This document shows positions 742 to 51,735 of a DNA stretch of 51,735 bases, piece after piece. The position numbers were made by a program, and so were the translations under genes. Origin of the DNA: a virus (lineage: Duplodnaviria; Caudoviricetes). Position 1 is the stretch's first letter, and every line of letters starts with the position of its first letter. The stretch covers positions 1 through 51,735 of IMG/VR virus record IMGVR_UViG_3300030329_001756; one strand, given 5' to 3'. Below the pieces are notes generated by a model, which searched no databases, was not told the origin of the DNA, and saw only the letters and a program-made list of their open reading frames with translations.

Positions 742-785
<44 letters not shown>

Positions 786-5970: not shown

Positions 5971-5992
5971 TTATTTTATCTTAGATATAAGT

Positions 5993-6226
5993 TCAATCTG
6001 ATATAGATATTTTATCTAAACTATCAAGATAATCCTTAGTAACAGTTTGTAAGTCCATTACGTAGTTCTTTAATGGCACGATATAAGGATAGTCCGGCAT
6101 TTCTTCTTCAAATACTGATAACAAGGTTCCTATATCCGTCATTCTTTGTTTAACAACAATAGTACTATCTTGAGTCAATGTCACTGTAATCTGCGATAAC
6201 AATGCTTCTATGTTATCCGTTGACAT
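5993..6226 (-). CDS. hypothetical protein
   Basis: 77-aa ORF downstream of nrdJ. Confidence 0.55.
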   Translation of the reverse strand: MSTDNIEALLSQITVTLTQDSTIVVKQRMTDIGTLLSVFEEEMPDYPYIVPLKNYVMDLQTVTKDYLDSLDKISISD

Positions 6227-6317
6227 ACTATAAGGTTGACAAAAATACTATGGTTGACAAAATTATTGGTACTGACAAAAAACAAGCAGTAGTAATAAGT
6301 ATTGTTGAAATCATTTT

Positions 6318-8228
6318 CTACGCTCCTATGTCTACAATTTCACAAACTCCACCAGTACACGCCAACTCTTGTGTTCCTGTTGTAGTGTCGCCTTTTTCAT
6401 ATTGTTGTAATTCATTCCAATCAATTGACAAAGGCATTTTGGTTGACAAATCAATATACATATCTTTGTCAATATCTTGATATGGTGCTTGTTTGTATGT
6501 GTGTTCAGAGAATGGAAGAAAAGATATTCCTGACAACGCACCAAAATTATTCCAACACCAAGAACCAACTTCAAGCCATTCATGTTCCTTGACAGAAATA
6601 GTGACAGAAGGTTTGTGTTCACAATAGTTGTTTGCAATCTTCAACCACAATTCCAATTGTTCTAGTGCTGACATATCATTTCTACAAATTGCATTGTCTG
6701 GACTTTTCATAGGAAATGAAAATACTGTGACACTATCCGGTGACGTGAAGTCAGGTTCGTTTGGAATATTCATATCACGCATAAACTCAGTTAACGGGTC
6801 TTTGTTGTCTCCTCTTACAGTACGAATAAAGTAGTCGTTGTGTCTTGCGTGAATACCAGAAGCAGCATCAACCAACTGTGACACGGTTCCTGATGGTTTG
6901 ACACAAGTGACAGCAGTACTTTGATTAATACCTATTTCGGCTGACAAATTTTTATTGACAAAGACTGCTCTTTCTTTAAGCCATTGCAATTGTTCTTCTG
7001 ACGCATTGTAGACAGCAGGACAATCCATGATTCCTGTAAGTGACACACCAAGTAATCTTTCTTCTTCAGTAGTATCTTTCCAACGCTTGCGAAGATAATT
7101 GAAGTTAGTTAACGTAGCTTGAAATGTTCCTAAAATCGTAGCAATTCTAACTTTATCTAAAATTGTTTCTATCGTGTCGTTGTATCGACAAACAACTTCT
7201 GACAAGTTACAGAACTGATAAGGTCTAAGAATAATTTCACAACAAGGATTAGTTCCAAAATCTATTTCTCCGTTTCTTCTGTTATTAGAAGAAGCTTTTT
7301 CTTTTGCAGAAATCCTGTTGAAGATACCTCGTTCACCGCTTTTGCTTTCATACAGTGACAACCATTCTTTCATAAAGATACCGATATCAGGTTTCTCTGT
7401 GTAACAAACGGAGTTGTTAGCTAAAGCTCTTTGAGGATTATCTACCCACCATTCTCCACTCTTAGCCATACGCATTCGCTCGTCAGTAAGATTTGACAAA
7501 GATATAAGTGCAGACCTACGTACTCCACCTACAACAACAACCTGTCCAATCTTACACATGATATCGTGACATTCGATTGACGTTAACTTTCTACCTTTAG
7601 CTTTCTTAAATATGTTGATTGTAAAATCAAACAAGTCAATAAGAGGCTCAGGTCCAGAAGCTCGTCCACCAAAAGTTTTAAGTCTTGCACCAGCCGGTCT
7701 AATTTTTGACGTATCTATTTTAGGAATACGATTGGTGTACAAAAAAGAAATAAGATCACGTAACGCTCTTGCCCATCCTTCTTTAGAATCTGCAACAGAT
7801 ATAAGATCATCAGAACTTTCAAAATCAATATCAGGAATAGTAGGAAGTTTGTTGACATATTGTCGTTCAACTGAAAAACCTACGCCAGTTCCATTCATAA
7901 GAATATACAAACACTCATCAAAAGATCGTGGTGAATCAATAGGAAGATAAGAACAGTTATAACCAGCAATGTTCTCTCTTTTAAGAGCAGGACCGGCAGT
8001 CATCAATGCTCTCATTGACCCAAGAACTTCAAGTTTTAACATAGAAGTTTCTATCTCAGAATACATATCATCTGGAATAGTATAGTTGTAATTGTCTTTA
8101 AGGTGGTCTGACATAAATGACAGATACCTATCAATAGTTTCTTTCCAATTTTCTCTTCTTTCTTCTTTATCTATCCAACGTGAATACCTAGATAGGTGTA
8201 TAAAGTTTTGATAATCTGTTGGTAACAT
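6318..8228 (-). CDS. nrdJ: class II adenosylcobalamin-dependent ribonucleotide reductase (monomeric RTPR-type)
   Basis: GYNCS, GTNPCCEI, CNLSE and CVKPSGTVSQL motifs; C-terminal CTGGVC; no beta subunit seen. Confidence 0.9.
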   Translation of the reverse strand: MLPTDYQNFIHLSRYSRWIDKEERRENWKETIDRYLSFMSDHLKDNYNYTIPDDMYSEIETSMLKLEVLGSMRALMTAGPALKRENIAGYNCSYLPIDSPRSFDECLYILMNGTGVGFSVERQYVNKLPTIPDIDFESSDDLISVADSKEGWARALRDLISFLYTNRIPKIDTSKIRPAGARLKTFGGRASGPEPLIDLFDFTINIFKKAKGRKLTSIECHDIMCKIGQVVVVGGVRRSALISLSNLTDERMRMAKSGEWWVDNPQRALANNSVCYTEKPDIGIFMKEWLSLYESKSGERGIFNRISAKEKASSNNRRNGEIDFGTNPCCEIILRPYQFCNLSEVVCRYNDTIETILDKVRIATILGTFQATLTNFNYLRKRWKDTTEEERLLGVSLTGIMDCPAVYNASEEQLQWLKERAVFVNKNLSAEIGINQSTAVTCVKPSGTVSQLVDAASGIHARHNDYFIRTVRGDNKDPLTEFMRDMNIPNEPDFTSPDSVTVFSFPMKSPDNAICRNDMSALEQLELWLKIANNYCEHKPSVTISVKEHEWLEVGSWCWNNFGALSGISFLPFSEHTYKQAPYQDIDKDMYIDLSTKMPLSIDWNELQQYEKGDTTTGTQELACTGGVCEIVDIGA

Positions 8229-12475: not shown

Positions 12476-12500
12476 CTGTCTATTCCTTTTTTTCTCATTT

Positions 12501-12577
12501 TGGCGGTCCCGGTAGGACTCGAACCTACAACCTATAGATTAGAAGTCTATTGCTCTATCCTTTTGAGCTACGGAACC
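12501..12577 (-). tRNA. tRNA-Arg(TCT)
   Basis: Cloverleaf GGTTCCG...anticodon loop CTTCTAA...GGTTCGAGTCC...CGGGACC-G-CCA. Confidence 0.92.
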
Positions 12578-12584
12578 AGAAAAA

Positions 12585-17003: not shown

Positions 17004-17038
17004 TTAAAAATATGTCCTAGTAATGGAAGGAGGTGGTT
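17004..17038. repeat. third copy of the box at 1057-1093
   Basis: ttaaaaatatgtcctagtaatggaaggaggtggt versus ttaaaaaaatatgtccctagtaatggaagggggtggt. Confidence 0.8.
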
Positions 17039-18400: not shown

Positions 18401-18401
18401 T

Positions 18402-18478
18402 GGACCCGTAGTTCAGTTGGTTAGAACGAACCGCTCATAACGGTTATGTCGTAGGTTCAAGTCCTACCGGGTCCACCA
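18402..18478 (+). tRNA. tRNA with CAT anticodon (Ile2-like or elongator Met)
   Basis: Cloverleaf, loop CTCATAA, encoded CCA; paired 1:72 so not initiator. Confidence 0.9.
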
Positions 18479-18480
18479 AA

Positions 18481-18567
18481 GCGGGCGTGGCGGAATTGGT
18501 AGACGCGGCAGACTTAAAATCTGTTTTCCGTTAGGAAGTGTGGGTTCAAGTCCCGCCGCCCGCACCA
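18481..18567 (+). tRNA. tRNA-Leu(TAA)
   Basis: Cloverleaf with long variable arm, loop CTTAAAA, encoded CCA. Confidence 0.92.
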
Positions 18568-18584: not shown

Positions 18585-19262
18585 ATGCAGATACAACATA
18601 AAGTTACTGATGATGTGCTTTTTGAGGGGGACTACCTTTCGGTTATGGCTGCGGCAGAAGCCGCTGTCAGAGAGGACGTATCCCTCAAAAACGCTGATCT
18701 CAGGGAGGCTGACCTCGAAGGCGCGAATCTTAGAAGTGCTAACCTCGAAGGCGCGAACCTCAGAGGCGCACGCCTCATCGACGCTGACCTTGAAGACGCA
18801 TATCTCGCAGAAGTTGATCTCAGAGGCGCATACCTCGAAGGCGCGAACCTCAGAGGCGCATACCTCATCAACACTGACCTTGAAGGCGCGTATCTCAAAG
18901 GCGCGAACCTCAGAGGCGCATATCTCAGAGGCGCGTGCTTCGGGGGCACCCACCTCGAAGGCTCTAACCTCGAAGGCGCGCGGCTCAAGGGTGATGACCT
19001 CATCGACGCTGGTCAAGACCGGCGCGGGTTTCAGTTCATCGGCTGCCGCTTCGCCAATGGGGTATGGGTGGTGGTTGGGTGCCGCTGGTTCTCCTTATCC
19101 GACGCCAGAGCGCATTGGGGTGAGGGCTATCCCGGCGACGCGGCGAGCAAGGCGTGGGCGTACACTGACACTGGCGACAGGGTTGAGATCAACGCCAAGT
19201 TGGACCTGATCGAGGCGACCGCGCAGTCGCGGGGGTGGAAACAGCCTGAAAAGGAGAAGTGA
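18585..19262 (+). CDS. pentapeptide repeat protein
   Basis: Tandem A(N/D/Y)LxG repeats; SD AGGAG; GC-rich. Confidence 0.9.
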   Translation: MQIQHKVTDDVLFEGDYLSVMAAAEAAVREDVSLKNADLREADLEGANLRSANLEGANLRGARLIDADLEDAYLAEVDLRGAYLEGANLRGAYLINTDLEGAYLKGANLRGAYLRGACFGGTHLEGSNLEGARLKGDDLIDAGQDRRGFQFIGCRFANGVWVVVGCRWFSLSDARAHWGEGYPGDAASKAWAYTDTGDRVEINAKLDLIEATAQSRGWKQPEKEK

Positions 19263-34137: not shown

Positions 34138-34365
34138 CTATATCCGTTGCGCGGCAGCAGCGGCATCGCGCTGCGCTCTATTTAAATAATCGCTACTGTC
34201 TTTAGCCTCGTCGTAGGCAGCCGCCCAGCGAGATACTTTCGCTTCAAGCCGCGCTGCCGCCTCAATTTCGGTCGCGCATGAGGCGAGATTATGCACGCAC
34301 CATGCGTCAGGATCGACCACTATATGCTCTAGAACATCACGTTGTCTTTGTGTCAAGTTTATCAT
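34138..34365 (-). CDS. hypothetical protein (tail-tip chaperone candidate)
   Basis: GC-rich; ATG (MINLTQ) overlaps the fiber stop codon. Confidence 0.55.
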   Translation of the reverse strand: MINLTQRQRDVLEHIVVDPDAWCVHNLASCATEIEAAARLEAKVSRWAAAYDEAKDSSDYLNRAQRDAAAAAQRI

Positions 34366-36962
34366 GCTACTAGCTCCCCGCTGAACCAACTCACCAATCC
34401 GCCAACACCGTAAACACCCTCATCATCGCTGGCGCTTCCCGTCGCCTCAACTTCGATGTAGGCTGTGTCCGAAGCATCCATATCGCACAACACGCTGTTT
34501 CCAGCGGTCATTCCGGCAGCACCGCCAGCCCCGGTGCCCAATACGGAGAGATCGAAGGTTCGGTTCGATGTGACCAAAAATACGTTGAATCGGGTCGCGC
34601 CGCCATCATTAGCCCATCGAACTGAGGCAGAAAAACGATACCGGCCTGTTACCGGCGCGGTGAATATGCCACTGCTGTTATTGTAATCTGCGTTCTGATC
34701 GAAAATTTCCGAATTAAATACAATGGTTACGTTTGTACCGTTGCCTGTGATGCTAAGTTGGTTTGTGGTCAGTTCAGCCAAAAATGCGGGCTGGCTGGGC
34801 ATTGTAATCTCGCCAGCGGAACTGATCGACATGCGCTCTGCCGCAGCAACACCGGCACCACTGTTGGTGTAAAACCTGAGTTTAGTGCTGCCACCGCCGC
34901 TGTACGACATCAAATTGACGTTACCACCGCTATCTGGCTGGATATAAAATCCGTATTGACCGCCGGGAGTCGTATCCACACCAGCACCAGTGCTTCGCAC
35001 AAGAACTTGACCGTTAACGTCAAATTTTGCGTCAGAGTCTGGCGAACTGGTGCCAATCCCAACATTGCCCGACGAATCTATGCGGAGTCTTTCAGAGGCA
35101 TTAGTAACAAATCGCATAGAGTTGCCGCCGTGATCGTAATTGATTCCGGCTACATCGTTATCATCAGGATCACCAAAAACGATGCTTGCCAGTTGATCAT
35201 TCGGAGTTAGAATAGAAAGACCGGCAAATCCACTATTTTCGATAATTAATTCATCTGCGTTTGCATTGGCCGTGACAGACCCAGCAGATGCGTTGTGAAT
35301 ATGTACTTTGCCGTCTGGGGCTGTTGTGCCAACCCCTAACGTAGCCGCTCCACCTAAGATTAAATCATCCGTCGAGGCATCCCAGAGCATGTATGCACTA
35401 GCCGTATCTCCAAAGAATTTAACGTCGTAGCCAGTATCATCTACACCAACAGTAACTGTATTATCGATTTGAACAGCACCATCTATATCAACGGCATCTA
35501 GATTAGTTGTGCCATCAATATCTGCATTACCTGATATATCTAGTGTTGTAGCATCTAATTCACCAGCTACAGTTAGAACACCGCTTGTAAGAGTTAGAAG
35601 ATCAGTATCAGAAGTATGACCTATAGTTGTTCCATTAATGATAACATTATCAACCGTAAGAGTTGTGAGTGTTCCAAGAGAAGTAACATTGCCTTGAGCC
35701 GCTGTAGCAAGTGTACCAGCAATTGTACCGCCTGAAACATTGATACCAGCACTAAATACTGGTATCTGATTCATTGTCACAACACCGCCACTAGAGATAG
35801 CTATTGCATCTGTGTCAGAAGCAGAACCAATATTACCAGCATCAGGAATAACAATGTTACCGCCAGTAGTCATCAAACCACCACCAGTGTAAGTTCCGCT
35901 TACATCTAGGTTGGCATTAACATCTACCAAAGTTGCGTTCAGTTCGATTTCATCTGTAGCATTAATGTCTAAAATAGTTGCGGAAGGAGCATTAATATAT
36001 TGAGAAGCGTCATTAAACTGAAGTGCCATTGTACTATTTAGAAGTAACCCAGTATCAGCAACGTGAGTTAAGGTAACATCACCATCGTCACCAAAATGAA
36101 TTACTGCTGCATCACTATCAAGATATAAATCATCTCCAAGTGTTAAATCTGAACTGAATACTGGCGTTTGACTAAAAGTAACAACACCACCAGATGAGAT
36201 GGCTATGGCATCCGTATCAGAAGCAGAACCAATATTACCACCATCAGGAATAACAATGTTACCTCCAGTAGTCATCAAACCACCGCCAGTATAGGTGCCA
36301 CTTACATCAAGGTTAGCGTTTACATCCATTAAAGTAGCATTTACTTCAACTTCATCTGTAGCGTTTATATCCAGAACAGTAGCAGAAGGAGCGTTGATAT
36401 ATTGAGAAGCATCGTTAAACTGAATAGCCATTGTGCTGTTTAACAGTAATCCAGTATCAGCAACGTGGGTTAGTGTTACATCATTATCTGCACCAAATCC
36501 TAATACAGCGGCATCGCTGTTAAGTTTTAAATCATTACTTACAAGAACTGCTGTAGATGCGTTAAGATCAATAGTAGCTTCACCATCGATAGTAAGAACA
36601 CCATCTGAACTTTGATGAATAAACGAAGCAGTATCTCCAAACATAATCTTTTCTGTAGAATTAATAAGAATATCGTCGGAGAATTTAAAATAGTCTTCAT
36701 CTTCCATCCAGTAAAGAACACCATCGTTTGATTCGCCATCAAACGTAATGGTAATATCTGTTCCAGAAGTACCAGCACCAAACGTAAGAGTATTACTTAA
36801 AAGTTTAGCAATTGCTCCACCTTCACCGGCAGTACCATCATGTGAGTGTCCACTTGTTCCAAACGCTGCTAAAATAGCATCAAATTCATCATTTGAATCA
36901 TCAGCATTAATAGTATCGCCTTGTGTGTAACTACTTTGTCTAGCTGAATAAGCTGTACCCAT
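34362..36962 (-). CDS. tail fiber with internal duplication and C-terminal C1q-like domain
   Basis: N-terminal EFDAI..AF..GHSHDG, GNVGIGT repeats, PAF...FTAPVTGRYRF...WFSGEL. Confidence 0.85.
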   Translation of the reverse strand: MGTAYSARQSSYTQGDTINADDSNDEFDAILAAFGTSGHSHDGTAGEGGAIAKLLSNTLTFGAGTSGTDITITFDGESNDGVLYWMEDEDYFKFSDDILINSTEKIMFGDTASFIHQSSDGVLTIDGEATIDLNASTAVLVSNDLKLNSDAAVLGFGADNDVTLTHVADTGLLLNSTMAIQFNDASQYINAPSATVLDINATDEVEVNATLMDVNANLDVSGTYTGGGLMTTGGNIVIPDGGNIGSASDTDAIAISSGGVVTFSQTPVFSSDLTLGDDLYLDSDAAVIHFGDDGDVTLTHVADTGLLLNSTMALQFNDASQYINAPSATILDINATDEIELNATLVDVNANLDVSGTYTGGGLMTTGGNIVIPDAGNIGSASDTDAIAISSGGVVTMNQIPVFSAGINVSGGTIAGTLATAAQGNVTSLGTLTTLTVDNVIINGTTIGHTSDTDLLTLTSGVLTVAGELDATTLDISGNADIDGTTNLDAVDIDGAVQIDNTVTVGVDDTGYDVKFFGDTASAYMLWDASTDDLILGGAATLGVGTTAPDGKVHIHNASAGSVTANANADELIIENSGFAGLSILTPNDQLASIVFGDPDDNDVAGINYDHGGNSMRFVTNASERLRIDSSGNVGIGTSSPDSDAKFDVNGQVLVRSTGAGVDTTPGGQYGFYIQPDSGGNVNLMSYSGGGSTKLRFYTNSGAGVAAAERMSISSAGEITMPSQPAFLAELTTNQLSITGNGTNVTIVFNSEIFDQNADYNNSSGIFTAPVTGRYRFSASVRWANDGGATRFNVFLVTSNRTFDLSVLGTGAGGAAGMTAGNSVLCDMDASDTAYIEVEATGSASDDEGVYGVGGLVSWFSGELVA

Positions 36963-42055: not shown

Positions 42056-43429
42056 CTATTTATTTTTTCTTGCAGCAGCCCAACGCATAGTGTTTATCTT
42101 TTTTAGTCCGTTATCAGTAAATCCTATATCAACATGTATTCCAGTACCATGTTCAAAGTCTTTAGTGATTAAGTAATCTTTGTTTTCTTCAAGACCGTAA
42201 TTATTTTTAAGTTTTTTTATTAGGTCTTTCGTATATTTTTTATAATCTTTTACTTTGTTTGTTTTATATGTAAAATCAAGTTTAGTTCCTCTTAGATGTC
42301 TACTGGGTGGTTTCCCTGCTTTTTTTCGATCATCATAATAAGAACCATGATGAAATTTATCATTTTGTGCAGTAACTCTACCAAATTTATTAGGTAAACT
42401 TTTTTGAATTTCACCAGCCATCCAAGTAACATCAGGATCGTTATATCTTCCCAGATCAATAGAATCTGTACCTAAATAATCTTTATCCCACTTTTTTTGT
42501 CCACCTTTAAATGCTTGACCACCTAACCGAGATAATTCAGAATAGTATTTTACGCCTAAATCTCTTAGAGTTTTATCTCCAAATTTTTCTGTTTTAACTC
42601 TTAAATCTAAAACTGATTCTGGAAGTATGTCCATAATATCAACATTAAGTTCTTTCTCTTCAAATTCACCTGTTTTCCAAGAACCCGGATTGTGTTCAAC
42701 AGAGACTAACTGTTTTTCTATGTCAGTAGGTAGTTCCACAAATCCTCCTTCATCAAATTTTAACTTCAACCTTGCATAACCTTCTTTATTTCCTCCAGAA
42801 GTAGAAGCTCCTATAGATGCTTCTCCGCGATTATTAAGAAATTTACGTTTTAATTCAGCACGATACGTATTTTTAGGTTTTCCGTGTGGTGGCATTACTT
42901 TTTCAGCACCTACGCTACCAAAATAATCTCCAAAATTTTTACCAACATTAAAATCATACTTTTTTTGACCTGATGGATTTTCTTTTTCAAAACCTAAATC
43001 TAAAGTACCGTCTTCTAAAAATTTTAAACCTAATCTGCCTTTTAAAGAACTTCCCTCTCTTTTAGATTTAAACCAAGCATTAGTAAAATTTTCATTTCCT
43101 TTAACATATTCTATTAACAATTTTTCAACATCATTTTCACGATCAGAAGGTACATTATATTCTGCCATTAAACTATTTACAGCACGTTTTACAGTTTCTT
43201 CATAATCATTAACTTTAAATGTTTCTTTTCCAGACGATCTTCCTGCTTGTCCTTGAATACTTCCTTTTCCTACAGGAATTTTAATTCCTACACTAACATC
43301 ATATTTATTTTTCTTTGTACTAAAAGGTCTAGATTCAGATGGTGCTTTATGTTTTGATCCGTATCTATAATTAAATCTTGGAATAAAAAGAGGTTTATCT
43401 TGAGCTACTAAATCACCATCTTTATAGGC
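42056..43429 (-). CDS. -1 frame extension: beta-barrel-like region plus peptidase M15-like domain
   Basis: Frame is open for 87 codons upstream of ATG 43168 with no start codon; SRHLRGTKLD...IHVD Zn motif. Confidence 0.7.
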   Translation of the reverse strand, partial: AYKDGDLVAQDKPLFIPRFNYRYGSKHKAPSESRPFSTKKNKYDVSVGIKIPVGKGSIQGQAGRSSGKETFKVNDYEETVKRAVNSLMAEYNVPSDRENDVEKLLIEYVKGNENFTNAWFKSKREGSSLKGRLGLKFLEDGTLDLGFEKENPSGQKKYDFNVGKNFGDYFGSVGAEKVMPPHGKPKNTYRAELKRKFLNNRGEASIGASTSGGNKEGYARLKLKFDEGGFVELPTDIEKQLVSVEHNPGSWKTGEFEEKELNVDIMDILPESVLDLRVKTEKFGDKTLRDLGVKYYSELSRLGGQAFKGGQKKWDKDYLGTDSIDLGRYNDPDVTWMAGEIQKSLPNKFGRVTAQNDKFHHGSYYDDRKKAGKPPSRHLRGTKLDFTYKTNKVKDYKKYTKDLIKKLKNNYGLEENKDYLITKDFEHGTGIHVDIGFTDNGLKKINTMRWAAARKNK

Positions 43430-44121
43430 TTTTTTTTTACAAGACCTCCACCTCTCATATCCAAAGTCTGTTTTTCCATAGTCTTTGTAGGAGGTTGTAA
43501 AGGATTGTTAAAACCGGGATTGTCCACATTACCAACACCTTGCATTGGAACGTATCCACCGCCTTTCATCATAGGCATAGCTGGTGCTTGTTGAGGCATA
43601 GCTAGTGCTTCTTCAGGCAATTCTTCTTGCGGAGGAATTTCAGGCATTGCAGCACCTAAACCTTCAACATCCTCGCTTGGTCTTTCCATGAACCCGTCAT
43701 TTCTTCCTGCTTCAAGTTGCGCTCTAAATTCTAATCCTTTTTCACGTAAAGCATTCAAAACGTCCATTCCTATGTACGGAATCAGTTCTTGAGGAACACG
43801 ATATTCATAATTAGAGATTTGAATAGGAACTTCATCTTGTGGATCAATTTCTTCTACTTGTATATCATCCTGTTCAGCAGCAGAAGCAGCTTCAAGAATC
43901 ATATTGTTTATTTCTTCAAATCCTACAAACAGAATAGTCTCGTAAGGAAGGATAAAATCACCTTCTTTAGCAGTAGCAGAAACATCGTCTTCCATAGATG
44001 CTACACCCTCATCAGGTAAAGCACCTTCAGCTTCATTCACCATTCCCGGTTCTAAAGCATCCCCTTCTAATAAGGGCGCTGGCGGTGCATTCATCATTTC
44101 TGGTCTGTCCATTAGTGCCAT
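43408..44121 (-). CDS. acidic head-module protein ending at a slippery site
   Basis: Repeated DDVSATAKEGDFILP / DEVPIQISNYEYRVP units; GTA AAA AAA AAG near the end. Confidence 0.75.
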   Translation of the reverse strand: MALMDRPEMMNAPPAPLLEGDALEPGMVNEAEGALPDEGVASMEDDVSATAKEGDFILPYETILFVGFEEINNMILEAASAAEQDDIQVEEIDPQDEVPIQISNYEYRVPQELIPYIGMDVLNALREKGLEFRAQLEAGRNDGFMERPSEDVEGLGAAMPEIPPQEELPEEALAMPQQAPAMPMMKGGGYVPMQGVGNVDNPGFNNPLQPPTKTMEKQTLDMRGGGLVKKKPIKMVI

Positions 44122-45653: not shown

Positions 45654-45884
45654 TTACTTATCACCTTTCCATTTAGAATCTGCTTCAACCGACACCTTGA
45701 GGCTGATCAGTGTTTCCAGCAAAGCCAGCTTCCCCTGCAATCGGCGCATCTCCAATTCCGATTCCGCCACCACCAGTTGCCGCTGCATCATTTGGGCCAA
45801 CTGTTTGAGGTACTCCTCCAGCGGCTCCCATAGCTGGGGGTTGCTGACCAGCGGGAGAAGGTTCTTGGCCTGTTGGTTGTGCAT
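45654..45884 (-). CDS. small conserved protein downstream of portal
   Basis: W..LEEYL...EMRRLQGK..LLETL. Confidence 0.65.
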   Translation of the reverse strand: MHNQQAKNLLPLVSNPQLWEPLEEYLKQLAQMMQRQLVVAESELEMRRLQGKLALLETLISLKVSVEADSKWKGDK

Positions 45885-47751
45885 TTATACCTCTCAAAAT
45901 ATCTGCGAAAATAGCTGCGTCATTTACGTCGTTAACAAGCAAATCAGGATCAATATCTTGACTGATAGCAAGTTCTTTTATAAGGTTTGGAATCTTGATG
46001 AACGGAGCAAGCATTGGGTTTGAAATAGTCTGAAGAAGCGTAGTAAGACGCTGACTACGTACTTCCTTTTGAACTACTGCGCTTGTTCCTCTTGGTTTAA
46101 TTTCAAGGTCACCGTGTATTTCAGGCATGTAAGTATTGAACTGCATGTTCCATTGAAAGTACGATTCTCCAAGAGGCTTGAGAAGAAAATCATCAATGTT
46201 CTTGATAACAGTCTTGATGCTTAATCCTGCGCTGGACATAAGCATACTTAAACCAGCAGCAGTTCTTCCTGTTCCTGTAACACCTGTCTGCCCGTGCATG
46301 ATACTTGGAATACCAGTTTGTTCGTCAGCAAGTTGCCTTGCCTTGTCGTACATCTGAATATTTTCTCCAGCAGTATTAGGAAACTTGATGCCGTTAATAG
46401 CTGTTCCTGTTACACCAGATTGCCTTCTAAAAACTTTACCGGGAAACACATCATAAGATTGTCCCGGTACAAGTTGAGCTTCGTCAATGTCAAAAACAAG
46501 ATTACCAGCTAAAGCAAGATTGTCAATAGCCATTCTTACGTGACCGTTCATCAACAGTTGACTATCTTCCATGTTTTCCGCAACACCTACACCAAAAATT
46601 TGATAAGGATTAAGTTCAAACGGAAACGAGTAGTACGGAAGCCTAGTAGGAAGAAATGGATTAGAAACTATTCTAAGAATTTCTTCACCACAAACCCAAA
46701 CATTTACCTGAACAGATCGTCCCGAATCCTCCGATACTTCGAGGCCAGCTTCTCGTGCAAGTGCCGTATCCATAATACCCCAGTATTCCAATACCTCATA
46801 ACGGTTTTTCTCATTAGTAGTATCCTTTTCATTATTGTACAAAGTACTTTCAAAATAGCGTTCTTGATAGTTTGGACCTTCCTCAAGAACTCGCTTAATA
46901 GCATCTTCATCGAATAAAGGACGGTTAAGAAGATCACGTAATTGCTCCCTGTTAAATCTGTGTCTTTCGATAACATATTCACAATCATTGATAGAGGTAG
47001 CAGAAGGATCAGGATAAAAATCCCAACAGCTAACGGAGCTTAAACGAGGAACAGTCTTTTCGTAAGGCTGGTATTGTTTCTCGTCTTCAGGACTACCTTC
47101 TTCTGGAATTGCCCAGTTGTGTACTGTCTTGCTATAGTTAAACGGTCCTTTTACAACACCAGTACCTAATAAGGAACACTCAAACAACGAGTGCCTCATA
47201 ATAGTTACTGCGTTAGTGTCTAAAAGTTGATCTTGAATGCACTTCTCCATATAACGTGCGGATTCTCTTGATGGAGATATTTGAGGTTGATTAGGAACTT
47301 TAGCTACACCCTCTTCTAAATTAGCTCCTTCGTACTTTTCACTTAAACCACCAAGCGGAGTAGCTTGTGTAGCACCCGGCAAAAGCTCTCTGCCGTCACC
47401 GGGAAAACCGTAAGGGTCTTCAGTTTCAGGTTGTTGAGGTTGTTGTGAAAGATGAGCAAACTCAGCAATACCTTCAGGAACAGGTGTAGATTCCACAGAG
47501 ATAGGAAATTTGTTCTGTGAAAATAAAATATCTACAATCTGTCCGTAAGCAGCAAGTACTTTTGTCTTTGTAATCTTGATAAAGACTTTACTACGCTCGT
47601 TATCACGGTATTGTGTTGTAGAGTCGTAGATACCACGATAGTTTTTATAGGCTTTAAGCCAGCGTTCTTCATCAGGTCTACGCCCTGTCTCAGCGTCCAT
47701 AAACCTTGATTTTACTAAGCCTACCAGCCTATATTCTTCGTATTCATCCAT
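45685..47751 (-). CDS. portal protein
   Basis: EERWLKAYKNYRG, FIKITKTKVLAAY, WDFYPDP, GVGVAENMED, RTAAGLSMLM. Confidence 0.88.
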   Translation of the reverse strand: MDEYEEYRLVGLVKSRFMDAETGRRPDEERWLKAYKNYRGIYDSTTQYRDNERSKVFIKITKTKVLAAYGQIVDILFSQNKFPISVESTPVPEGIAEFAHLSQQPQQPETEDPYGFPGDGRELLPGATQATPLGGLSEKYEGANLEEGVAKVPNQPQISPSRESARYMEKCIQDQLLDTNAVTIMRHSLFECSLLGTGVVKGPFNYSKTVHNWAIPEEGSPEDEKQYQPYEKTVPRLSSVSCWDFYPDPSATSINDCEYVIERHRFNREQLRDLLNRPLFDEDAIKRVLEEGPNYQERYFESTLYNNEKDTTNEKNRYEVLEYWGIMDTALAREAGLEVSEDSGRSVQVNVWVCGEEILRIVSNPFLPTRLPYYSFPFELNPYQIFGVGVAENMEDSQLLMNGHVRMAIDNLALAGNLVFDIDEAQLVPGQSYDVFPGKVFRRQSGVTGTAINGIKFPNTAGENIQMYDKARQLADEQTGIPSIMHGQTGVTGTGRTAAGLSMLMSSAGLSIKTVIKNIDDFLLKPLGESYFQWNMQFNTYMPEIHGDLEIKPRGTSAVVQKEVRSQRLTTLLQTISNPMLAPFIKIPNLIKELAISQDIDPDLLVNDVNDAAIFADILRGINAQPTGQEPSPAGQQPPAMGAAGGVPQTVGPNDAAATGGGGIGIGDAPIAGEAGFAGNTDQPQGVG

Positions 47752-47831
47752 ATTAAGATTACTTTCGTACTATTTTTCTATACATATGTTGTTGAACGGC
47801 GACAAGTACAAAATGTCACCAAGCGACGACA

Positions 47832-48062
47832 TTAGCTATGAGGAGATTTGTCGGCAAGACTGCCAAGAACTTTGGAGTCTACGTGCTTTCCACCGTTCTT
47901 TTTACCAAAATCCTCAATAAGAACACCGTGCTTGATCTTCATATCAAACTCAGCCTTTTCACGGTAAAGCGCACTTTCATTTGCATCACTAACTTCGCCC
48001 TGTTTGGACATCTGCTTCATGATGTAGTCCTTACCGTACATCTGTTTGTTTCCGTATGGCAT
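47832..48062 (-). CDS. hypothetical protein
   Basis: 76 aa; SD AAGGA; codon usage like the capsid gene. Confidence 0.65.
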   Translation of the reverse strand: MPYGNKQMYGKDYIMKQMSKQGEVSDANESALYREKAEFDMKIKHGVLIEDFGKKNGGKHVDSKVLGSLADKSPHS

Positions 48063-48095
48063 AATGTTATTCCTTTTTTCTGTGTAAAGTTAAAT

Positions 48096-50639
48096 TTACT
48101 CGCCCATAAGAGCGGACATTTGATCTTGATAATTTTTAGCTTGACGTTCTAAATCAGCATTCTCAATATCTTTAATACTTCTTATTCGTTCATCTTCTAA
48201 AGAAGAATAATCTTCTTCAGTGTATCTGTGTTCACCTTCTTGATATGTTGGCTCAGTTTCAGCTATATTTCTCCATTGACTTACGGCACCTGTAGAAATA
48301 CGTGCTGGATCAGGTTTTATGTACTTGTCTCGTAATCCTTCAAACAAACTTCTTTCATCTACATCCGTTTCACGTTCTGATAAAGGTCTTTGAGAAATTA
48401 TGTCTTGTAATTCTGCTAAGTATCCTTCTTCATCTCTAGGTGGAAGGTCTGCAATCTCTTGTTGAAAAAGGTTTCTGTCAATACTTTGATCAACAAATTG
48501 ACCAACAGTAGGACGTTCTGGTAAAGGCATATTTGCTTTTGCTACAGGCGTTGCTGAAGTTAACATTTCAAGTGCTACATCAGCACCTAAAACAGCAGGA
48601 CCAGCAATTGCACTTTTAGGTATTTTACCAAGTAATTTATAAATTTGTTTTAATTTATCTCTTCTAGAAAAATCGACTCTGCCTTTATGAACGCCTTCCT
48701 TTATTCTTTTAGAAGCTAAATCTGCTTTTGATCTAGCTTCTTCTAACATTGAAGACATATCAGGATACCTTAAACTAGGTTCCATAAGACCTTTTTCATT
48801 TAAAAATCCGTTGGTATCAAGCCAAGCTGATAATCCTTTGCTATCTTTAATATTATGATCTGGGCCTGTTAAAATAGTTGTTAAAAGTTGAGCCTGTTCT
48901 CTATCATCTAAATTATTTTCTAAATCAAGTTCTGGAGCTATCTTTTTTAAAGCTTCAAAAACTTTATCTGTTTTATTTAATTCGGTTGCAACTTTTATTT
49001 TATCGTTAGATGTAGCTCCTTCACCACTACCTAAATCAAAATCAGATTCGGCTTCTCGTAATGGTACAGGAAATTCATCAGCATCAGATATAGCTTGTCT
49101 GTCAACATTATCTATAAGAGGAGTAGGAGATTTTACTGGTTCTGATGGCGCATCATCAGGAGGTTTAAATTTTATGTTTAATTTTTCAGCTATCTGACCT
49201 TTATTATTTACTCCTAAATGAACTCCTAGATTATTTTCAAATTGTTTTGTAATTTCAAAAGGCGTTACTCTGGAGAAACTTCTTATATAGCTTTTAGTTG
49301 TTACGTTACTGCCTTGACTGTCAGCATGTTCTAAAAGCATATCTGCTACTATTTTTTTATCAATTTTAGAACCATTTTGATCTTCAATATCAGTATTGTA
49401 TGCAATAACAGAAGCACCTATTTTTCTTAAAACTGAATGATCATCTGCTTTTCTTCCTAAAATTCGATTATACTCACTTCCAACGTCTGTTAACGGACCA
49501 GCTACTTTCTTCATTACTTTAGTAACATCTTGTGTTGTTAAATTTCCAAATACTTTACCTTTTCTTCGTTTTCCTTGATGAAAAGCTAAATCTTTAAACA
49601 TATTTTGCTGAGAAGTAGTTAATCGTATAGTTCCTTGTTGTTTCTTACCTTGTGAACCGGGAAATACAATTTGTGTAAAATCATCATTTAAATAAGGAGC
49701 GATACTTACTCCTTCAGGTTTACTGCTAAGAATATTTAATAAGTGTGTTGCTCGTATGGGCAGTTGACTGTTAATATAAATAGCAGATTTAACTTGTTTT
49801 TTAGTTCCATTTATCTTTAAACCACCCTTTTTAAAATTAGCGTTATCTACTCCCTCCATAATGTTGCTCATAAGAGTAGAATATTCGTCTAAAGTTAAAG
49901 GATAATGGATTGCTTTTCTACTTTGCCCTCTTGCTTGATCAGACAATCCTCTAGTAATCCAATGAAATAAAGTCTTTTGTTTTTTTCCTGCTGATTCTCT
50001 AAGACCTATTTCCATAGAGTTCCAGTAAGTTTTAAAATTTTGAGCCTTTTTACCTTCTCCTAAAAGCGGTATAGGGTCTTCTTCATCTATTGCCATATCT
50101 TGAAGACCAAGAAAAGTATTTAAGTCAAGTTTTTCTTGAAAACCATCTCCTTTTAAAACATTGTCTAATTCCTGTCGTTCTAAAACTTGACTTGTAAAAG
50201 ATTTGAAATTGTTTAATATTGTTTCAGGAGTAGGACTAAATCCTGATGCTTTATCTCCTGTAATATTAATTGGTTTAGAAACCAATTTAAAATGATCTCT
50301 GATTAATTCATATTCTTTGACGTAATCACTTCCTTCTTTTACACCCTCTTTAACAAAATCATTATGATATTCTGGATTACCTATTGTTATACCTCTTTTT
50401 ATTAAAGAAAGTATAGAAGCTTCTCTTAAAGTAATCTGGTCAGGAGTTCTAAGTGCTTTATCTAACAAATTTTTCTTTACTGTATCATTAAATTCACTTT
50501 CTCCTAAATTATCAAGATAAGGATCAATAATAAGTGTTTTTAATTCTTTTAATTGTTTGCCAAAACTATCAGTATCTAACAACGAAACACCACCACCAGA
50601 TGCGTATCCTTTAACTTGTTTTTCTACGAAACCTACCAT
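48096..50639 (-). CDS. large protein with a central tyrosine-recombinase-like domain
   Basis: LPIRATHLL, HSVLRKIGAS, MLLEHAD and TTKSY in canonical order; likely start MVGFVEKQ. Confidence 0.6.
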   Translation of the reverse strand: MVGFVEKQVKGYASGGGVSLLDTDSFGKQLKELKTLIIDPYLDNLGESEFNDTVKKNLLDKALRTPDQITLREASILSLIKRGITIGNPEYHNDFVKEGVKEGSDYVKEYELIRDHFKLVSKPINITGDKASGFSPTPETILNNFKSFTSQVLERQELDNVLKGDGFQEKLDLNTFLGLQDMAIDEEDPIPLLGEGKKAQNFKTYWNSMEIGLRESAGKKQKTLFHWITRGLSDQARGQSRKAIHYPLTLDEYSTLMSNIMEGVDNANFKKGGLKINGTKKQVKSAIYINSQLPIRATHLLNILSSKPEGVSIAPYLNDDFTQIVFPGSQGKKQQGTIRLTTSQQNMFKDLAFHQGKRRKGKVFGNLTTQDVTKVMKKVAGPLTDVGSEYNRILGRKADDHSVLRKIGASVIAYNTDIEDQNGSKIDKKIVADMLLEHADSQGSNVTTKSYIRSFSRVTPFEITKQFENNLGVHLGVNNKGQIAEKLNIKFKPPDDAPSEPVKSPTPLIDNVDRQAISDADEFPVPLREAESDFDLGSGEGATSNDKIKVATELNKTDKVFEALKKIAPELDLENNLDDREQAQLLTTILTGPDHNIKDSKGLSAWLDTNGFLNEKGLMEPSLRYPDMSSMLEEARSKADLASKRIKEGVHKGRVDFSRRDKLKQIYKLLGKIPKSAIAGPAVLGADVALEMLTSATPVAKANMPLPERPTVGQFVDQSIDRNLFQQEIADLPPRDEEGYLAELQDIISQRPLSERETDVDERSLFEGLRDKYIKPDPARISTGAVSQWRNIAETEPTYQEGEHRYTEEDYSSLEDERIRSIKDIENADLERQAKNYQDQMSALMGE

Positions 50640-50641
50640 AA

Positions 50642-50863
50642 TCAGCAATCAAACTTCTTATACAGTACTTCCATTCTTGCAGCATCCAGTTCAGCACTAG
50701 GAACAGCAGAATCAGTTTTCTTTTTTGTGTAATTGGTATCGTTATACGGATAAGGTCTTTCTTCACCCGTATCGTAAGGATTGAAGTTAAAGTTGTTCAA
50801 GCTTGTACCAAAAGAATGAATCATAAAAGGAATGTGGTGCGTAGTAGTTTTTTTCTTAGCCAT
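50642..50863 (-). CDS. hypothetical protein
   Basis: 73-aa coupled ORF. Confidence 0.6.
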   Translation of the reverse strand: MAKKKTTTHHIPFMIHSFGTSLNNFNFNPYDTGEERPYPYNDTNYTKKKTDSAVPSAELDAARMEVLYKKFDC

Positions 50864-50865
50864 AT

Positions 50866-51735
50866 TTAATATCCAAACACTTCGTTAGAGGGTTCAAATG
50901 ACTGTTGTTGTTTAATAGAATTGAACATAGAACTGGTTACATGGCCGGTCTGGCGCGTCATGCACATGTATCGTAGGGCGTCATACGCATGATCCTCTGC
51001 TTTAGTGTCTACGTCCTCTGAATTAGTTCGAGACAAAGGCAGAGTAGGAAGAGTACGTATAAGGTTTGTACAAGTGCTAAAGATACGCAAACCGTGTCCA
51101 CCTTTAGAGCTTAGTGGCTTGTCTTCATCAAGTCTTCTGTGAAGTTCGATTTTCCCGGCCATGCGATTTCTGTCCGCTGGTATAAATCTAGCACCATTAC
51201 GGATCATTGTTTCAGCTATACTTGGTCCTGTGCCGTGCTTTGACCAACAAGACCCGTCAAGAACATTTTGCGTCATAGGAGGATCATCATGCTCTAAAGC
51301 AAGAATAAGACTTGCTAGGCTTTCTCCTGTATGTCCTTTTTCGTACAATTCTCTATATACCCAGATTGTTCCGTCCCAATCTACCGCGCCCCATAAGACA
51401 CAACTAGGGCTACTGTAGCCGTAATCCATTGCTCGTATACGGGGCCAGCTAAAGGGAACTTCAAATGGTTCAACAACATGTACTGATCTATCGAACTCAT
51501 AAAATGCTGCCCCTTCTGCAACATCCCAATCTCCTTCAAGTAACCTACGTCTTTCAACTTCAGGAAGACTGAGAAGCATTGATTCATATTCACCTGACTC
51601 CGATAGATAAGGATTATCTGTTAGTCTTGCAGGAATAAACTTTCTTTGAAACAAGGGTTGTTGTGTTTTTGGATTTGTTAAAGTTCTTCCTGTTTCTGGA
51701 TCAACTGCCCAAAACGGTGTATTTGGCGGTACAGG
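50866..51735 (-). CDS. terL: terminase large subunit (C-terminal part; runs off the window)
   Basis: Frame open to the window end; FIPARLTDNPYL, LLEGDWD, MDYGY, EDHAYDALRY. Confidence 0.92.
   Translation of the reverse strand, partial: PVPPNTPFWAVDPETGRTLTNPKTQQPLFQRKFIPARLTDNPYLSESGEYESMLLSLPEVERRRLLEGDWDVAEGAAFYEFDRSVHVVEPFEVPFSWPRIRAMDYGYSSPSCVLWGAVDWDGTIWVYRELYEKGHTGESLASLILALEHDDPPMTQNVLDGSCWSKHGTGPSIAETMIRNGARFIPADRNRMAGKIELHRRLDEDKPLSSKGGHGLRIFSTCTNLIRTLPTLPLSRTNSEDVDTKAEDHAYDALRYMCMTRQTGHVTSSMFNSIKQQQSFEPSNEVFGY

What the first reader, a model, noticed from the sequence alone, without database searches (positions are those of the whole stretch)
48096..50639. 850-aa protein with a tyrosine-recombinase-like core between terminase and portal
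Seen in about 49950-49280: LPIRATHLL (cf. GxRxxE), a Lys in GSQGKK, DHSVLRKIGAS (cf. HxLR, His displaced by one residue), MLLEHAD (cf. LGH) and VTTKSY (cf. TTxxY), in canonical order. Long unrelated N- and C-terminal extensions flank it. The phage otherwise looks lytic: no repressor, excisionase or att site was recognised. The N-terminus carries the same GG motif as neighbouring head-module proteins. Inference: a late-expressed and possibly packaged recombinase, resolvase or TopoIB-like enzyme that acts on genome ends (circularisation on entry or concatemer resolution) and is not an integrase.
Basis: inference. Interest (0 to 1): 0.75.

Follow-up and report, generated by a model that had tools for sequence, protein, structure and literature searches.

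The report
Hidden hypervariable recombinase beside phage portal
The large gene between the terminase and portal genes of this marine phage encodes a very divergent tyrosine recombinase with a long extra tail, and fast-evolving versions of it sit in the same place in most related uncultured phages, a group so far regarded as purely lytic.

Summary
Alone it matches nothing in Pfam, PHROGs, NCBIfam or PDB, and two AlphaFold models were too poor to use. Synteny settled it. Of 57 related IMG/VR loci that show both the terL end and the portal start, 53 carry a homologous large ORF in this slot. In the 73-protein alignment (mean column identity 11%) the only near-invariant positions are R296, K333, F364, R405 and Y451. 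H438 is H or R. 24 of 73 members hit PF00589. The family profile hits solved integrases and Xer recombinases (best E 9e-12). hhalign against a PF00589-type domain alignment gives 98.5% probability. So the core is an Int/Xer-type tyrosine recombinase, not TopoIB-like. New points: only the first ~695 codons are replaced between near-identical flanks; there is a 200-584 aa extension after the catalytic Tyr; and a short C-terminal motif recurs in unrelated proteins occupying the same slot. Function is inferred: a late-made recombinase docked to the head or packaging machinery (about 0.45), against an ordinary integrase (about 0.3). No att site, prophage copy or cultured carrier was found.

The parts
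48096..50639 (-). Whole gene (847 codons from the ATG at 50639, plus stop): tyrosine recombinase with long N- and C-terminal regions
   Evidence: relatives start at the same MVGF... (P0003, P0009)
49260..49901 (-). Catalytic domain, aa 247-460, homologous to the PF00589 (Int/Xer) catalytic domain
   Evidence: hhalign colinear alignment to template columns 1-171 of 172. Family-level 98.5% probability, E 1.9e-15. PDB profile hits.
49752..49754 (-). R296, Arg I (G/P-x-R, cf. TGxR)
   Evidence: R in 70 of 73, 3 gaps; >=90% in A4; aligned to Arg I of XerD
49641..49643 (-). K333, hairpin Lys
   Evidence: K in 70 of 73, R in 1, 2 gaps; >=90% in A4. In the five-sequence alignment it lands 3 columns from XerD K172.
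49425..49427 (-). R405, Arg II (xxLR; His II replaced by S402)
   Evidence: R in 71 of 73, 2 gaps; VLRK aligned to VLRH of XerD
49326..49328 (-). H438, His III (LLEH, cf. LGH)
   Evidence: H in 41, R in 30, 2 gaps; aligned to the LGH His
49287..49289 (-). Y451, predicted nucleophile
   Evidence: Y in 66, F in 5, 2 gaps. Y in all 72 rows that cover the column in A4.
48553..50636 (-). Variable cassette (about codons 1-695): no nucleotide similarity to locus L005, although the flanks are 76-90% identical
   Evidence: blastn. Contig breaks at 50641-50670 in two runs, and one contig joining 48626 to 50636.
48099..49259 (-). C-terminal extension after the catalytic domain (aa 461-847)
   Evidence: All family members have 200-584 aa after the Tyr; no family match
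48540..48620 (-). Gly/Ala-rich segment (aa 674-700, IPKSAIAGPAVLGADVALE...)
   Evidence: Similar G/A-rich stretch at the aligned place in most of the 73. It is the top but non-significant hhalign match between tail profiles (E 0.074).
48099..48131 (-). Extreme C-terminal motif YQDQMSALMGE
   Evidence: [DEQ][DEQ]QM[STNQ].L in the last 25 aa of 19 of 76 slot proteins, against 0 of 1817 internal windows. The non-recombinase slot proteins L054 and L062 match it; L079 carries a close variant (KDQMNKL).
50645..50863 (-). 73-aa ORF between terL and the recombinase gene; its stop lies 3 nt before the recombinase ATG
   Evidence: a 75-aa counterpart in L005; no Pfam match
47835..48062 (-). 76-aa ORF between the recombinase gene and portal, part of the conserved flank
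   Evidence: A 68-97 aa ORF is listed next to the portal in 74 of the 75 loci with room upstream. No Pfam match.
50866..51735 (-). terL, C-terminal part (cut by the record end): upstream flank
   Evidence: PHROG terminase large subunit families
45685..47751 (-). Portal gene: downstream flank
   Evidence: PF23899 and PHROG portal families; 57% identical to the Pelagibacter phage HTVC033P portal

Best explanation
SHOWN: the gene encodes a catalytically intact-looking Int/Xer-type tyrosine recombinase (R296, K333, R405, H438, Y451; His II missing). It belongs to a large syntenic family that fills the terL-portal slot in an uncultured clade of HMO-2011-type marine podophages. The family evolves far faster than its neighbours. 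The first ~695 codons are exchanged as a cassette whose upstream edge is the start codon. Every member has a 200-584 aa extension after the catalytic Tyr. INFERRED: the enzyme is made late, co-translated with terminase and portal. Its C-terminal extension, which ends in a short conserved motif also found on unrelated proteins in the same slot, docks it to a conserved part of the head or packaging machinery. The recombinase would therefore act on phage DNA at packaging, or travel in the capsid and act on the incoming genome (cyclisation or integration) before any phage gene is expressed. Cleavage would go through a 3'-phosphotyrosyl link at Y451, as in all tyrosine recombinases (established knowledge of the family).
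For: Homology. The alignment of 73 slot proteins has mean column identity 11%, and its only >=90% conserved positions are R296, K333, F364, R405 and Y451. The pentad is RKRHY in 41 and RKRRY in 24. PF00589 is hit by 24 of 73 members at E<=0.01; the L038 ORF scores 38.3 bits against a cut-off of 27.1. The family profile hits 3nkh integrase (9.3e-12), 4a8e XerC-like (4.8e-11), Tn1549 Int (5.7e-9), XerA, XerD and XerH. hhalign of the family core against a 15-sequence PF00589-type domain alignment gives 98.5%, E 1.9e-15, score 101.7. Forty column shuffles gave mean 7.2 and max 11.7. The window's five-member subfamily against the other 65 gives 99.1%, E 8.8e-19; the other 65 against the domain alignment give 98.5%. 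ESM Atlas on two members only 22% identical returns tyrosine-recombinase/ResT clusters at 0.94-0.95.
Synteny. Of 57 loci showing both the terL end and the portal start, 53 have a family ORF, 3 have another large ORF and 1 has none.
Cassette. L005 is 90% identical in terL up to 50636, has no nucleotide similarity over 50636-48553, then 76% and 90%. The portal alignment has mean column identity 74%.
Late operon. Same strand, 3-nt spacing, no promoter excess (13 found against 12.1 +/- 3.8 expected).
Docking hint. A terminal motif occurs in 54 of 76 slot proteins, including two of the three non-recombinase ones, and is rare internally (0 and 12 of 1817 windows).
No other integrase in the window or in 5 near-complete relatives' records: the only PF00589 hits lie inside this ORF.
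Against: The window's protein alone gives no Pfam, PHROG, NCBIfam or PDB hit. With only its five-member subfamily, hhalign is weak (score 18.1, E 0.069; 1 of 200 shuffles reaches it). Both AlphaFold2 models are poor (pLDDT 37.7 and 45.5). Structure searches returned nothing usable (best Foldseek E 0.56; best VIA Z 6.7, on a helical stretch only). His II is absent (S402). Nothing shows the protein is in virions. The terminal motifs were defined after looking at the tails. Homology of the extension across the family is not significant (E 0.074). No recombination site was found: inverted repeats inside the ORF are not conserved in L004. A cassette swap without a linked site is awkward for a sequence-specific enzyme. 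No cultured phage carries the gene.
Confidence: 0.45

Rival explanations
1. It is simply the phage's integrase for lysogeny, in an unusual place and not associated with the virion. The clade would be temperate. The allele diversity would reflect switching of integration sites among host strains, as integrase modules do in other temperate phages.
For: The closest solved relatives are integrases and Xer recombinases, and PF00589 is hit by 24 of 73 members. It is the only PF00589-like gene in the window and in 5 near-complete relatives' records. Cassette-like replacement resembles integrase-module exchange (recalled general knowledge). In other HMO-2011-type subgroups a canonical int exists and one isolate integrates (PMC9038755, passages read).
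Against: The gene is embedded in the terL-portal operon with 3-nt spacing, and no excisionase or repressor was seen. There is almost no non-coding DNA for an attP beside it, and the swapped cassette contains only coding sequence. No relative was found in 185,579 species genomes, either by the portal route (7 loci, none with the gene) or by the protein's own patterns; that search is of limited sensitivity. No tRNA gene lies near it. The 200-584 aa extension after the Tyr is not a feature of ordinary integrases. Canonical int genes of this phage group sit upstream of the replication module (HMO-2011 int found at 5698-6201 of its record).
Confidence: 0.3
2. It is a packaging-coupled resolvase. 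The C-terminal extension would tether the recombinase to terminase or portal so that multimers or junctions are resolved as DNA is translocated, loosely analogous to FtsK-activated XerCD at dif. It would not be carried in the virion.
For: Position between terL and portal, and conserved synteny. Xer-type relatives, including a XerD-FtsK fusion structure, appear among the PDB hits. There is a terminal motif that could bind a conserved partner.
Against: The phage already has a T7-type endonuclease I (PF05367, E 8.8e-35). A housekeeping resolvase acting on a fixed phage site would not be expected to be the most variable gene of the region. No site was found.
Confidence: 0.12
3. It is an arms-race effector or selfish cassette. 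Either a recombinase-derived nicking or cutting enzyme aimed at host DNA or host defences, or a gene that spreads by itself, with hypervariability driven by conflict rather than by site specificity.
For: Only the catalytic residues are conserved. GC3 of the variable part is 0.128, like the 1795-aa and 1008-aa proteins (0.137, 0.14) and unlike terL and portal (0.30, 0.29). Unrelated proteins can occupy the slot. In three marine metagenomes of three studies the summed contig depth over the variable part is lower than over the flanks (about 10-18 against 104-640 in X3). The tool warns that contig depth is a poor measure.
Against: The cassette edges are the start codon and a point inside the ORF, not element ends with their own sites. 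No terminal repeats flank it. Nothing ties it to a defence or counter-defence family; the PADLOC library was not searched.
Confidence: 0.1

Closest known systems
Xer-type and Tn916/Tn1549-type tyrosine recombinases (XerA, XerC, XerD, XerH; Tn1549 Int; integrase 3nkh)
   Same: Catalytic-domain homology. Family profile E 9e-12 to 2e-5 against these solved chains. PF00589 hits in 24 of 73 members. Arg I, Lys, Arg II, His III and Tyr are in order with similar spacing.
   Different: Two to three times longer. A 200-584 aa extension follows the Tyr. His II is absent, and His III is Arg in about a third. Encoded inside a phage packaging/head operon. Extreme divergence, with mean column identity 11%.
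Canonical integrase of HMO-2011-type phages (e.g. HMO-2011 int, 302-aa frame)
   Same: Same phage group and same superfamily (PF00589 E 1.2e-21 in HMO-2011).
   Different: That int lies upstream of the replication module and is confined to subgroups I-III (PMC9038755, passages read). It is of normal length. The four cultured isolates examined (HTVC033P, HMO-2011, HTVC115P, CRP-207) have nothing but 0-4 small ORFs between terL and portal.
P1 Cre-loxP (recalled, not tested here)
   Same: A phage tyrosine recombinase whose site lies near the packaging start and which can cyclise incoming terminally redundant DNA. This is a functional analogy for 'recombinase next to terminase'.
   Different: Cre is 343 aa, is not known to be packaged, and has a defined 34-bp site. 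No comparable site was found here.
Phage N4 virion RNA polymerase, and poxvirus TopoIB in virions (recalled, not tested here)
   Same: Precedents for a nucleic-acid enzyme carried in the particle. For N4, a three-part protein whose C-terminal part is needed for encapsidation.
   Different: No sequence relation. Packaging of the present protein is not shown. TopoIB did not appear among PDB profile hits.
Protelomerases (TelN, TelK, ResT; PF16684)
   Same: ESM Atlas feature search puts ResT/TelK clusters among the nearest (0.94 at rank 4; 0.95 at rank 1). His II is also replaced in some of them (recalled).
   Different: No profile similarity to a TelN-family alignment (E 0.53), though that test has little power, because TelN against the PF00589-type alignment also fails. 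No long palindrome like telRL is in the window; the longest adjacent-arm repeats are 17-21 nt at 74-83%.

Membership tests
Tyrosine recombinase superfamily (PF00589 Phage_integrase type catalytic domain) | Significant sequence or profile similarity to the catalytic domain | tested here: met
   Not by the single protein (no Pfam hit at E<=1) but through its family. The five-member subfamily against 65 syntenic homologues gives 99.1%, E 8.8e-19. Those 65 against the PF00589-type alignment give 98.5%, E 1.5e-15. 24 of 73 members hit PF00589. PDB integrase/Xer hits go down to 9.3e-12.
Tyrosine recombinase superfamily | Catalytic Arg I, Lys, Arg II, His/Trp III and Tyr nucleophile, in order and conserved | tested here: met
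   R296, K333, R405 and Y451 are >=90% conserved in 73 sequences. H438 is H in 41 and R in 30. They align to the XerD catalytic residues, with the Lys within 3 columns.
Tyrosine recombinase superfamily | His II of the HxxR box | tested here: not met
   Position R-3 is S402 (S 26, Y 10, A 9, Q 6, K 6 of 73). The neighbouring H401 is H in only 7 of 73. This residue is known to vary in some subfamilies (recalled).
Tyrosine recombinase superfamily | Catalytic-domain fold | tested here: inconclusive
   AF2 pLDDT 37.7 (whole protein) and 45.5 (core) from 5-sequence alignments. Foldseek best E 0.56. VIA best Z 6.7 on residues 1-105 of the core model only. In the ESM Atlas's own low-confidence model, all 10 listed structural neighbours are recombinase or TopoI clusters, TM 0.40-0.50 by query.
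Tyrosine recombinase superfamily | Covalent 3'-phosphotyrosine intermediate and strand exchange at a defined site | not testable with these tools
   Needs biochemistry. No candidate site was found.
Type IB topoisomerase | Similarity to the TopoIB catalytic domain (the RKRHY pentad alone is shared with recombinases) | tested here: inconclusive
   No TopoIB chain among PDB profile hits at E<=1. One ESM structural neighbour (rank 10, TM 0.43) is a eukaryotic Topo I cluster. No TopoIB alignment was available for a profile comparison.
Protelomerase / telomere resolvase (PF16684) | Profile similarity, and a long palindromic target near the gene | tested here: inconclusive
   hhalign against the TelN family gives E 0.53, but the test lacks power (PF00589 also misses TelN in N15). 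No long palindrome in the window; the record is about 97% complete.
Temperate-phage integrase (functional class) | attP next to the gene, excisionase or repressor, integrated copies in host genomes | tested here: not met
   No non-coding room or tRNA-like site beside it. No such genes in the ORFs scanned. No copies in species-representative genomes. These are absences from limited searches, so the function is not excluded.
Encapsidated or ejected phage enzymes with a targeting signal | A conserved targeting peptide or domain, and presence in virions | tested here: inconclusive
   A terminal motif is enriched in slot proteins (54 of 76, against 0 and 12 of 1817 internal windows). It was defined post hoc. 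Virion presence is not testable here.

The most novel reading that the evidence does not exclude
The terL-portal slot is a cargo slot. A short C-terminal peptide would load whatever enzyme is encoded there into the capsid. In most of this abundant marine clade the cargo is a ready-made integrase that is injected with the genome, as in retroviruses. That would give phages classed as obligately lytic a hidden, expression-independent route to integration or cyclisation, with alleles matched to host strains.
Probability: 0.15. Interest if true: 0.9.

Novelty: new variant of a known kind. Interest (0 to 1): 0.66.

Why it matters
HMO-2011-type phages are among the most abundant marine viral groups. 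Their subgroups without a recognisable int are taken to be obligately lytic (PMC9038755, passages read; its supplementary tables could not be seen and might list this gene). Here, 53 of 57 informative loci of one uncultured clade carry an intact-looking tyrosine recombinase that standard annotation misses, inside the packaging/head operon. Either these phages can recombine site-specifically with something (host chromosome, own ends, multimers), or a recombinase has been recruited to the virion or packaging machinery. Either result changes how the group's life cycle is read. The locus is also a hypervariable island in a DNA enzyme, whereas such islands in phage genomes are usually in host-recognition genes (recalled). 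The shared terminal motif, if it is a loading signal, would be a handle for putting proteins into podophage capsids. The same sequence is near-identical in marine metagenomes of 13 studies dated 2014-2025, so material to test this exists in nature, though no host-phage pair is in culture.

Tried and rejected
1. Single-protein searches gave nothing: Pfam, PHROGs, NCBIfam, PDB by sequence and by 5-sequence profile, and GenBank phages by tblastn.
2. Direct homologue searches gave only 3 full-length relatives and a few fragments: 3 hits among the 8000 candidates scored in a 5.8-billion-protein collection, and 6 hits among 1.84 billion representatives. They also gave 3 IMG/VR contigs and the same 2 metagenome contigs.
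3. AlphaFold2 on the whole protein and on residues 190-500, with 5-row alignments, gave pLDDT 37.7 and 45.5. Foldseek on PDB and VIA-wide on the core model gave no usable match.
4. hhalign of the five-sequence core against XerD-only and TelN-only alignments gave nothing; template diversity was too low.
5. Complex prediction of the portal (42-row alignment) with residues 690-847 returned 'no answer', score 0.00. This is no evidence either way.
6. Search for a tel-like palindrome or a core-type site: only short, imperfect inverted repeats. The five inside the ORF are not preferentially conserved in L004.
7. Prophage search in species-representative genomes by portal and by the protein's own patterns found no carrier. 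The 73-row alignment was too divergent to make search patterns.
8. Homology of the C-terminal extension between the window's subfamily and the rest was not significant (E 0.074).
9. Selfish-element reading: no flanking repeats, and the cassette edges lie at or inside the ORF.
10. Reading the N-terminal GG motif as a family feature: rejected, 0 of 57.
11. RNA evidence. One metatranscriptome library holds >=99% identical contigs over 46017-49165 (in pieces), 50047-50249 and terL. DNA carry-over cannot be excluded, so expression is not shown. Parts without RNA contig cover say nothing.
12. Earlier-findings look-ups returned nothing.
13. Literature searches for a packaged phage tyrosine recombinase or an encapsidated phage TopoIB found no such report. 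The first search returned 25 papers with all five terms; I read the 15 listed titles and abstract openings, and none concerned this. The second search returned 0 papers.
Full report
THE OBJECT. The window is a 51.7-kb IMG/VR virus record, estimated 97% complete. Its portal is 57% identical to that of Pelagibacter phage HTVC033P and 49% to that of Puniceispirillum phage HMO-2011, so it is an HMO-2011-type marine podophage. The ORF runs 48096..50648 on the minus strand (850 aa from TTG). Relatives begin at the ATG at 50639, giving 847 aa. Upstream lies the C-terminal part of terL, cut by the record end. Downstream lies the portal. A 73-aa ORF starts at the terL stop and ends 3 nt before the recombinase ATG. 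A 76-aa ORF lies between the gene and the portal. Promoter-like sites are not enriched: 13 found against 12.1 +/- 3.8 expected. The gene therefore sits inside the packaging/head operon. Late expression is an inference from this layout.

THE OBSERVATION. Among the only close relatives found (3 full-length proteins, fragments and 3 viral contigs), R296, K333, R405, H438 and Y451 are invariant, although only 41 of 311 core positions are. H401, the 'displaced' His, is not conserved.

FIRST ATTEMPTS AT THE FOLD QUESTION. The protein alone matches nothing in Pfam, PHROGs, NCBIfam, PDB or 50,697 GenBank phage records. AlphaFold2 with 5-row alignments gave pLDDT 37.7 (whole protein) and 45.5 (residues 190-500). 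Foldseek and VIA searches on the core model gave nothing usable. The ESM Atlas gave leads. For residues 190-530 the nearest feature clusters are archaeal integrase, ResT/TelK and PF00589 clusters (0.94), and all 10 listed structural neighbours of its own low-confidence model are recombinase or Topo I clusters. The core of P0004, only 22% identical, again returned ResT/TelK and PF00589 clusters at 0.95. I built a 15-sequence alignment of PF00589 domains from E. coli K-12 (13), lambda and HMO-2011. hhalign of the five-sequence core against it gave a colinear alignment. It puts R296 on Arg I, R405 on Arg II, H438 on the LGH His and Y451 on the Tyr, with K333 three columns from the Lys. The score is weak: 18.1, E 0.069, reached by 1 of 200 column shuffles. 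As a control for power, the bona fide relative TelN fails the same test, and PF00589 does not find TelN in phage N15.

WHAT SETTLED IT: SYNTENY. A search of IMG/VR with the window's portal gave at least 597 relatives, of which the best 80 loci were kept (portal 64-83% identical). Of the 57 loci that show both the terL end and the portal start, 53 carry one large ORF of this family in the slot, 3 carry another large ORF and 1 carries none. Fifteen more loci hold a copy cut by the contig end. BLASTP single linkage joins 68 of these ORFs with the five close relatives into one component. The links to the window's subfamily are P0003-L028 (1e-8), P0003-L029 (6e-8) and P0004-L029 (2e-4). The tool's alignment of the 73 has mean column identity 11%, and its only positions conserved at >=90% are R296, K333, F364, R405 and Y451. 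H438 is H in 41 and R in 30. Position 294 is G in 48 and P in 14, as in the TGxR box. The pentad reads RKRHY in 41 and RKRRY in 24; the rest are truncated or locally gapped.

With this depth the homology is clear. PF00589 is hit by 24 of 73 members at E<=0.01, the best at 38.3 bits against a cut-off of 27.1. The family profile hits solved integrases and Xer recombinases: 3nkh (9.3e-12), 4a8e (4.8e-11), Tn1549 Int (5.7e-9), and XerA, XerD and XerH (5e-6 to 2e-5). No TopoIB or protelomerase appears at E<=1. hhalign of the family core against the PF00589-type alignment gives 98.5%, E 1.9e-15, score 101.7. Forty column shuffles gave mean 7.2 and max 11.7, and the reversed alignment gave 9.4. Transitivity holds: the window's five against the other 65 give 99.1%, E 8.8e-19, and the other 65 alone against the domain alignment give 98.5%. 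The core is therefore an Int/Xer-type tyrosine recombinase domain (about aa 247-460) that lacks His II.

WHAT IS UNUSUAL.
(a) Place. The four cultured HMO-2011-type phages examined have only 0-4 small ORFs between terL and portal. No GenBank phage matches three diverse family members. The published survey of the group places int, where present, upstream of the replication module and calls subgroups IV-X probably lytic (PMC9038755, passages read; supplements not seen). In the window and in 5 near-complete relatives' records, the only PF00589 signal is this ORF.
(b) Rate and mode of change. Portals of 42 loci have mean column identity 74%, against 11% for the recombinases. Against L005, nucleotide identity is 90% in terL up to 50636, three bases from the ATG. 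It is undetectable over 50636-48553 (codons 1-695), then 76% through the C-terminal 150 codons and the 76-aa ORF, and 90% in the portal. In contigs of public marine metagenomes, two runs from different studies break at 50641-50670, and one contig joins 48626 to 50636 with other sequence between. Summed contig depth is lower over the variable part than over the flanks in three runs, but the tool warns that this measure is poor. GC3 of the variable part is 0.128. That resembles the 1795-aa and 1008-aa proteins (0.137, 0.14) and differs from terL and portal (0.30, 0.29).
(c) Architecture. Every member has 200-584 aa after the catalytic Tyr. This extension differs between sublineages: BLAST components of 55, 7, 5, 5 and 1. 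Profile similarity between the window's type and the rest is not significant (E 0.074). Most members share a Gly/Ala-rich stretch at the aligned place and a short motif at the very end. [DEQ][DEQ]QM[STNQ].L is in the last 25 residues of 19 of 76 slot proteins and in 0 of 1817 internal windows. [GSN]F[LIVM][STN] is in 35 of 76 against 12 of 1817. Either motif is in 54 of 76, or 44 of 66 distinct tails. I defined these motifs after seeing the tails, so the contrast is inflated.
(d) The three slot proteins that are not recombinases (no similarity to the family or to PF00589) end in ...DQMTKLTG or ...DQMNKLTG. The window's protein ends in ...DQMSALMGE.

MECHANISM. Shown: homology, conserved catalytic residues, synteny, cassette replacement, the extension and the terminal motif. 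From established knowledge of the family, Y451 would attack the DNA backbone to form a 3'-phosphotyrosyl intermediate, with R296, R405, K333 and H438 around the scissile phosphate. Inferred: the constant C-terminal part and its terminal motif serve a partner that is conserved across the clade. The neighbours (portal, terminase, capsid) are the obvious candidates. The enzyme would then be brought to the DNA at packaging or loaded into the particle. N4 virion RNA polymerase and poxvirus TopoIB are recalled precedents for enzymes carried in particles, and P1 Cre for a recombinase that cyclises incoming DNA. I put this at about 0.45. The main rival is an ordinary, unpackaged integrase (about 0.3). 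It is favoured by the Int/Xer kinship and by allele swapping. It is disfavoured by the operon position, the lack of room for an attP, the absence of other lysogeny genes, no integrated copies found in species-representative genomes and the long extension. A packaging-coupled resolvase (about 0.12) and a conflict-driven effector or selfish cassette (about 0.1) remain possible. A puzzle for all site-specific readings is that the swapped cassette carries no non-coding DNA. A cognate site would have to lie inside the ORF or be unlinked, and the inverted repeats inside the ORF are not conserved in L004.

COMPARISON AND NOVELTY. It is a member of the tyrosine recombinase superfamily. Profile similarity and five catalytic positions are met; His II is not met; the fold is untested in effect. 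It is not shown to be a TopoIB or a protelomerase. I know of no description of a recombinase family in this position or with this architecture. Two literature searches and the main text of the group's survey paper show none, but supplements were closed. I rate it a new variant of a known kind.

VERDICT. The TopoIB idea is not supported. Packaging and the biological role remain open.

Noticed in passing
L054:1333-2943, L062:4319-5692, L079:2134-4317: In three related loci the terL-portal slot holds a large ORF (458-728 aa) unrelated to the recombinase family and with no Pfam match. It ends in a DQM[TN]KLTG motif like the window protein's DQMSALMGE.
   Followed up: partly
L046 (terL end 4425, portal start 4714): The one informative related locus with no large ORF between terL and portal (289-bp gap, only a 79-aa ORF). 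It is a natural 'empty slot' comparator.
   Followed up: no
protein P0007 (164 aa, metagenome fragment): Residues 66-163 are 94% identical to residues 24-120 of the window protein. The first ~65 residues are different, and from memory they resemble the N-terminus of PD-(D/E)XK/Cas4-like nucleases; this was not tested. It suggests further N-terminal shuffling.
   Followed up: no
window 1010-1093 and 17007-17037; 920-946/1122-1148: A ~32-nt element (...ATATGTCC(C)TAGTAATGGAAGG(A/G)GGTGGT) occurs in two intergenic regions 16 kb apart, with a degenerate third copy at 1010-1044. A 27-nt inverted repeat (93%) flanks the first set. Probably regulatory or origin sequences; they could also be looked at as recombinase sites.
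   Followed up: no
window 745-782: A (CT)n run of about 19 units directly downstream of the start of the ORF at 356-736.
   Followed up: no
window 4137-4256 and 6236-6279, 6425-6450: Tandem 15-nt repeats (TTATGGCTGACAAAA-like, about 7 units) and dispersed TTGACAAA-containing copies. They look like iterons or operator arrays.
   Followed up: no
window 12501-12577 (-), 18402-18478 (+), 18481-18567 (+): Three tRNA genes (Arg-tct, Met-cat, Leu-taa). The long 'inverted repeat' 12499-12578 / 18401-18480 is tRNA-to-tRNA similarity.
   Followed up: partly
window 18585-19262 (+): A pentapeptide-repeat protein (PF00805, E 6e-40) on the opposite strand, in a G+C-richer patch. It accounts for the 15-nt periodic repeat family at 18683-18997.
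   Followed up: partly
window 34362-36962 (-): An 866-aa protein with a C-terminal C1q domain (PF00386, E 3e-9) and an internal 300-nt direct repeat (35751-36050 / 36153-36452, 81%). Likely a tail fibre.
   Followed up: no
window 2000-4000: A G+C-rich patch (0.505 against 0.374 for the window) holding a DUF932 protein (2740-3885, E 2.5e-34).
   Followed up: no
window-wide: Two codon-composition classes of genes. GC3 is about 0.13-0.18 in the recombinase and the 1795-, 1008- and 778-aa proteins. It is 0.29-0.46 in terL, portal, DNA polymerase and major capsid protein.
   Followed up: partly
L005:644-1501 and 1411-2256: terL of this close relative reads in two overlapping frames (285 aa and 281 aa). 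This could be a frameshift, a sequencing error or a split gene.
   Followed up: no
window 43408-44121 (-) and 50570-50600: A short [KR/S]-GGG-[YLV]-V motif occurs twice in the 237-aa head-module protein and once at the N-terminus of the recombinase. Similar Y-x-GGG-K-V strings occur in a 130-aa ORF of L005. Its meaning is unknown.
   Followed up: partly
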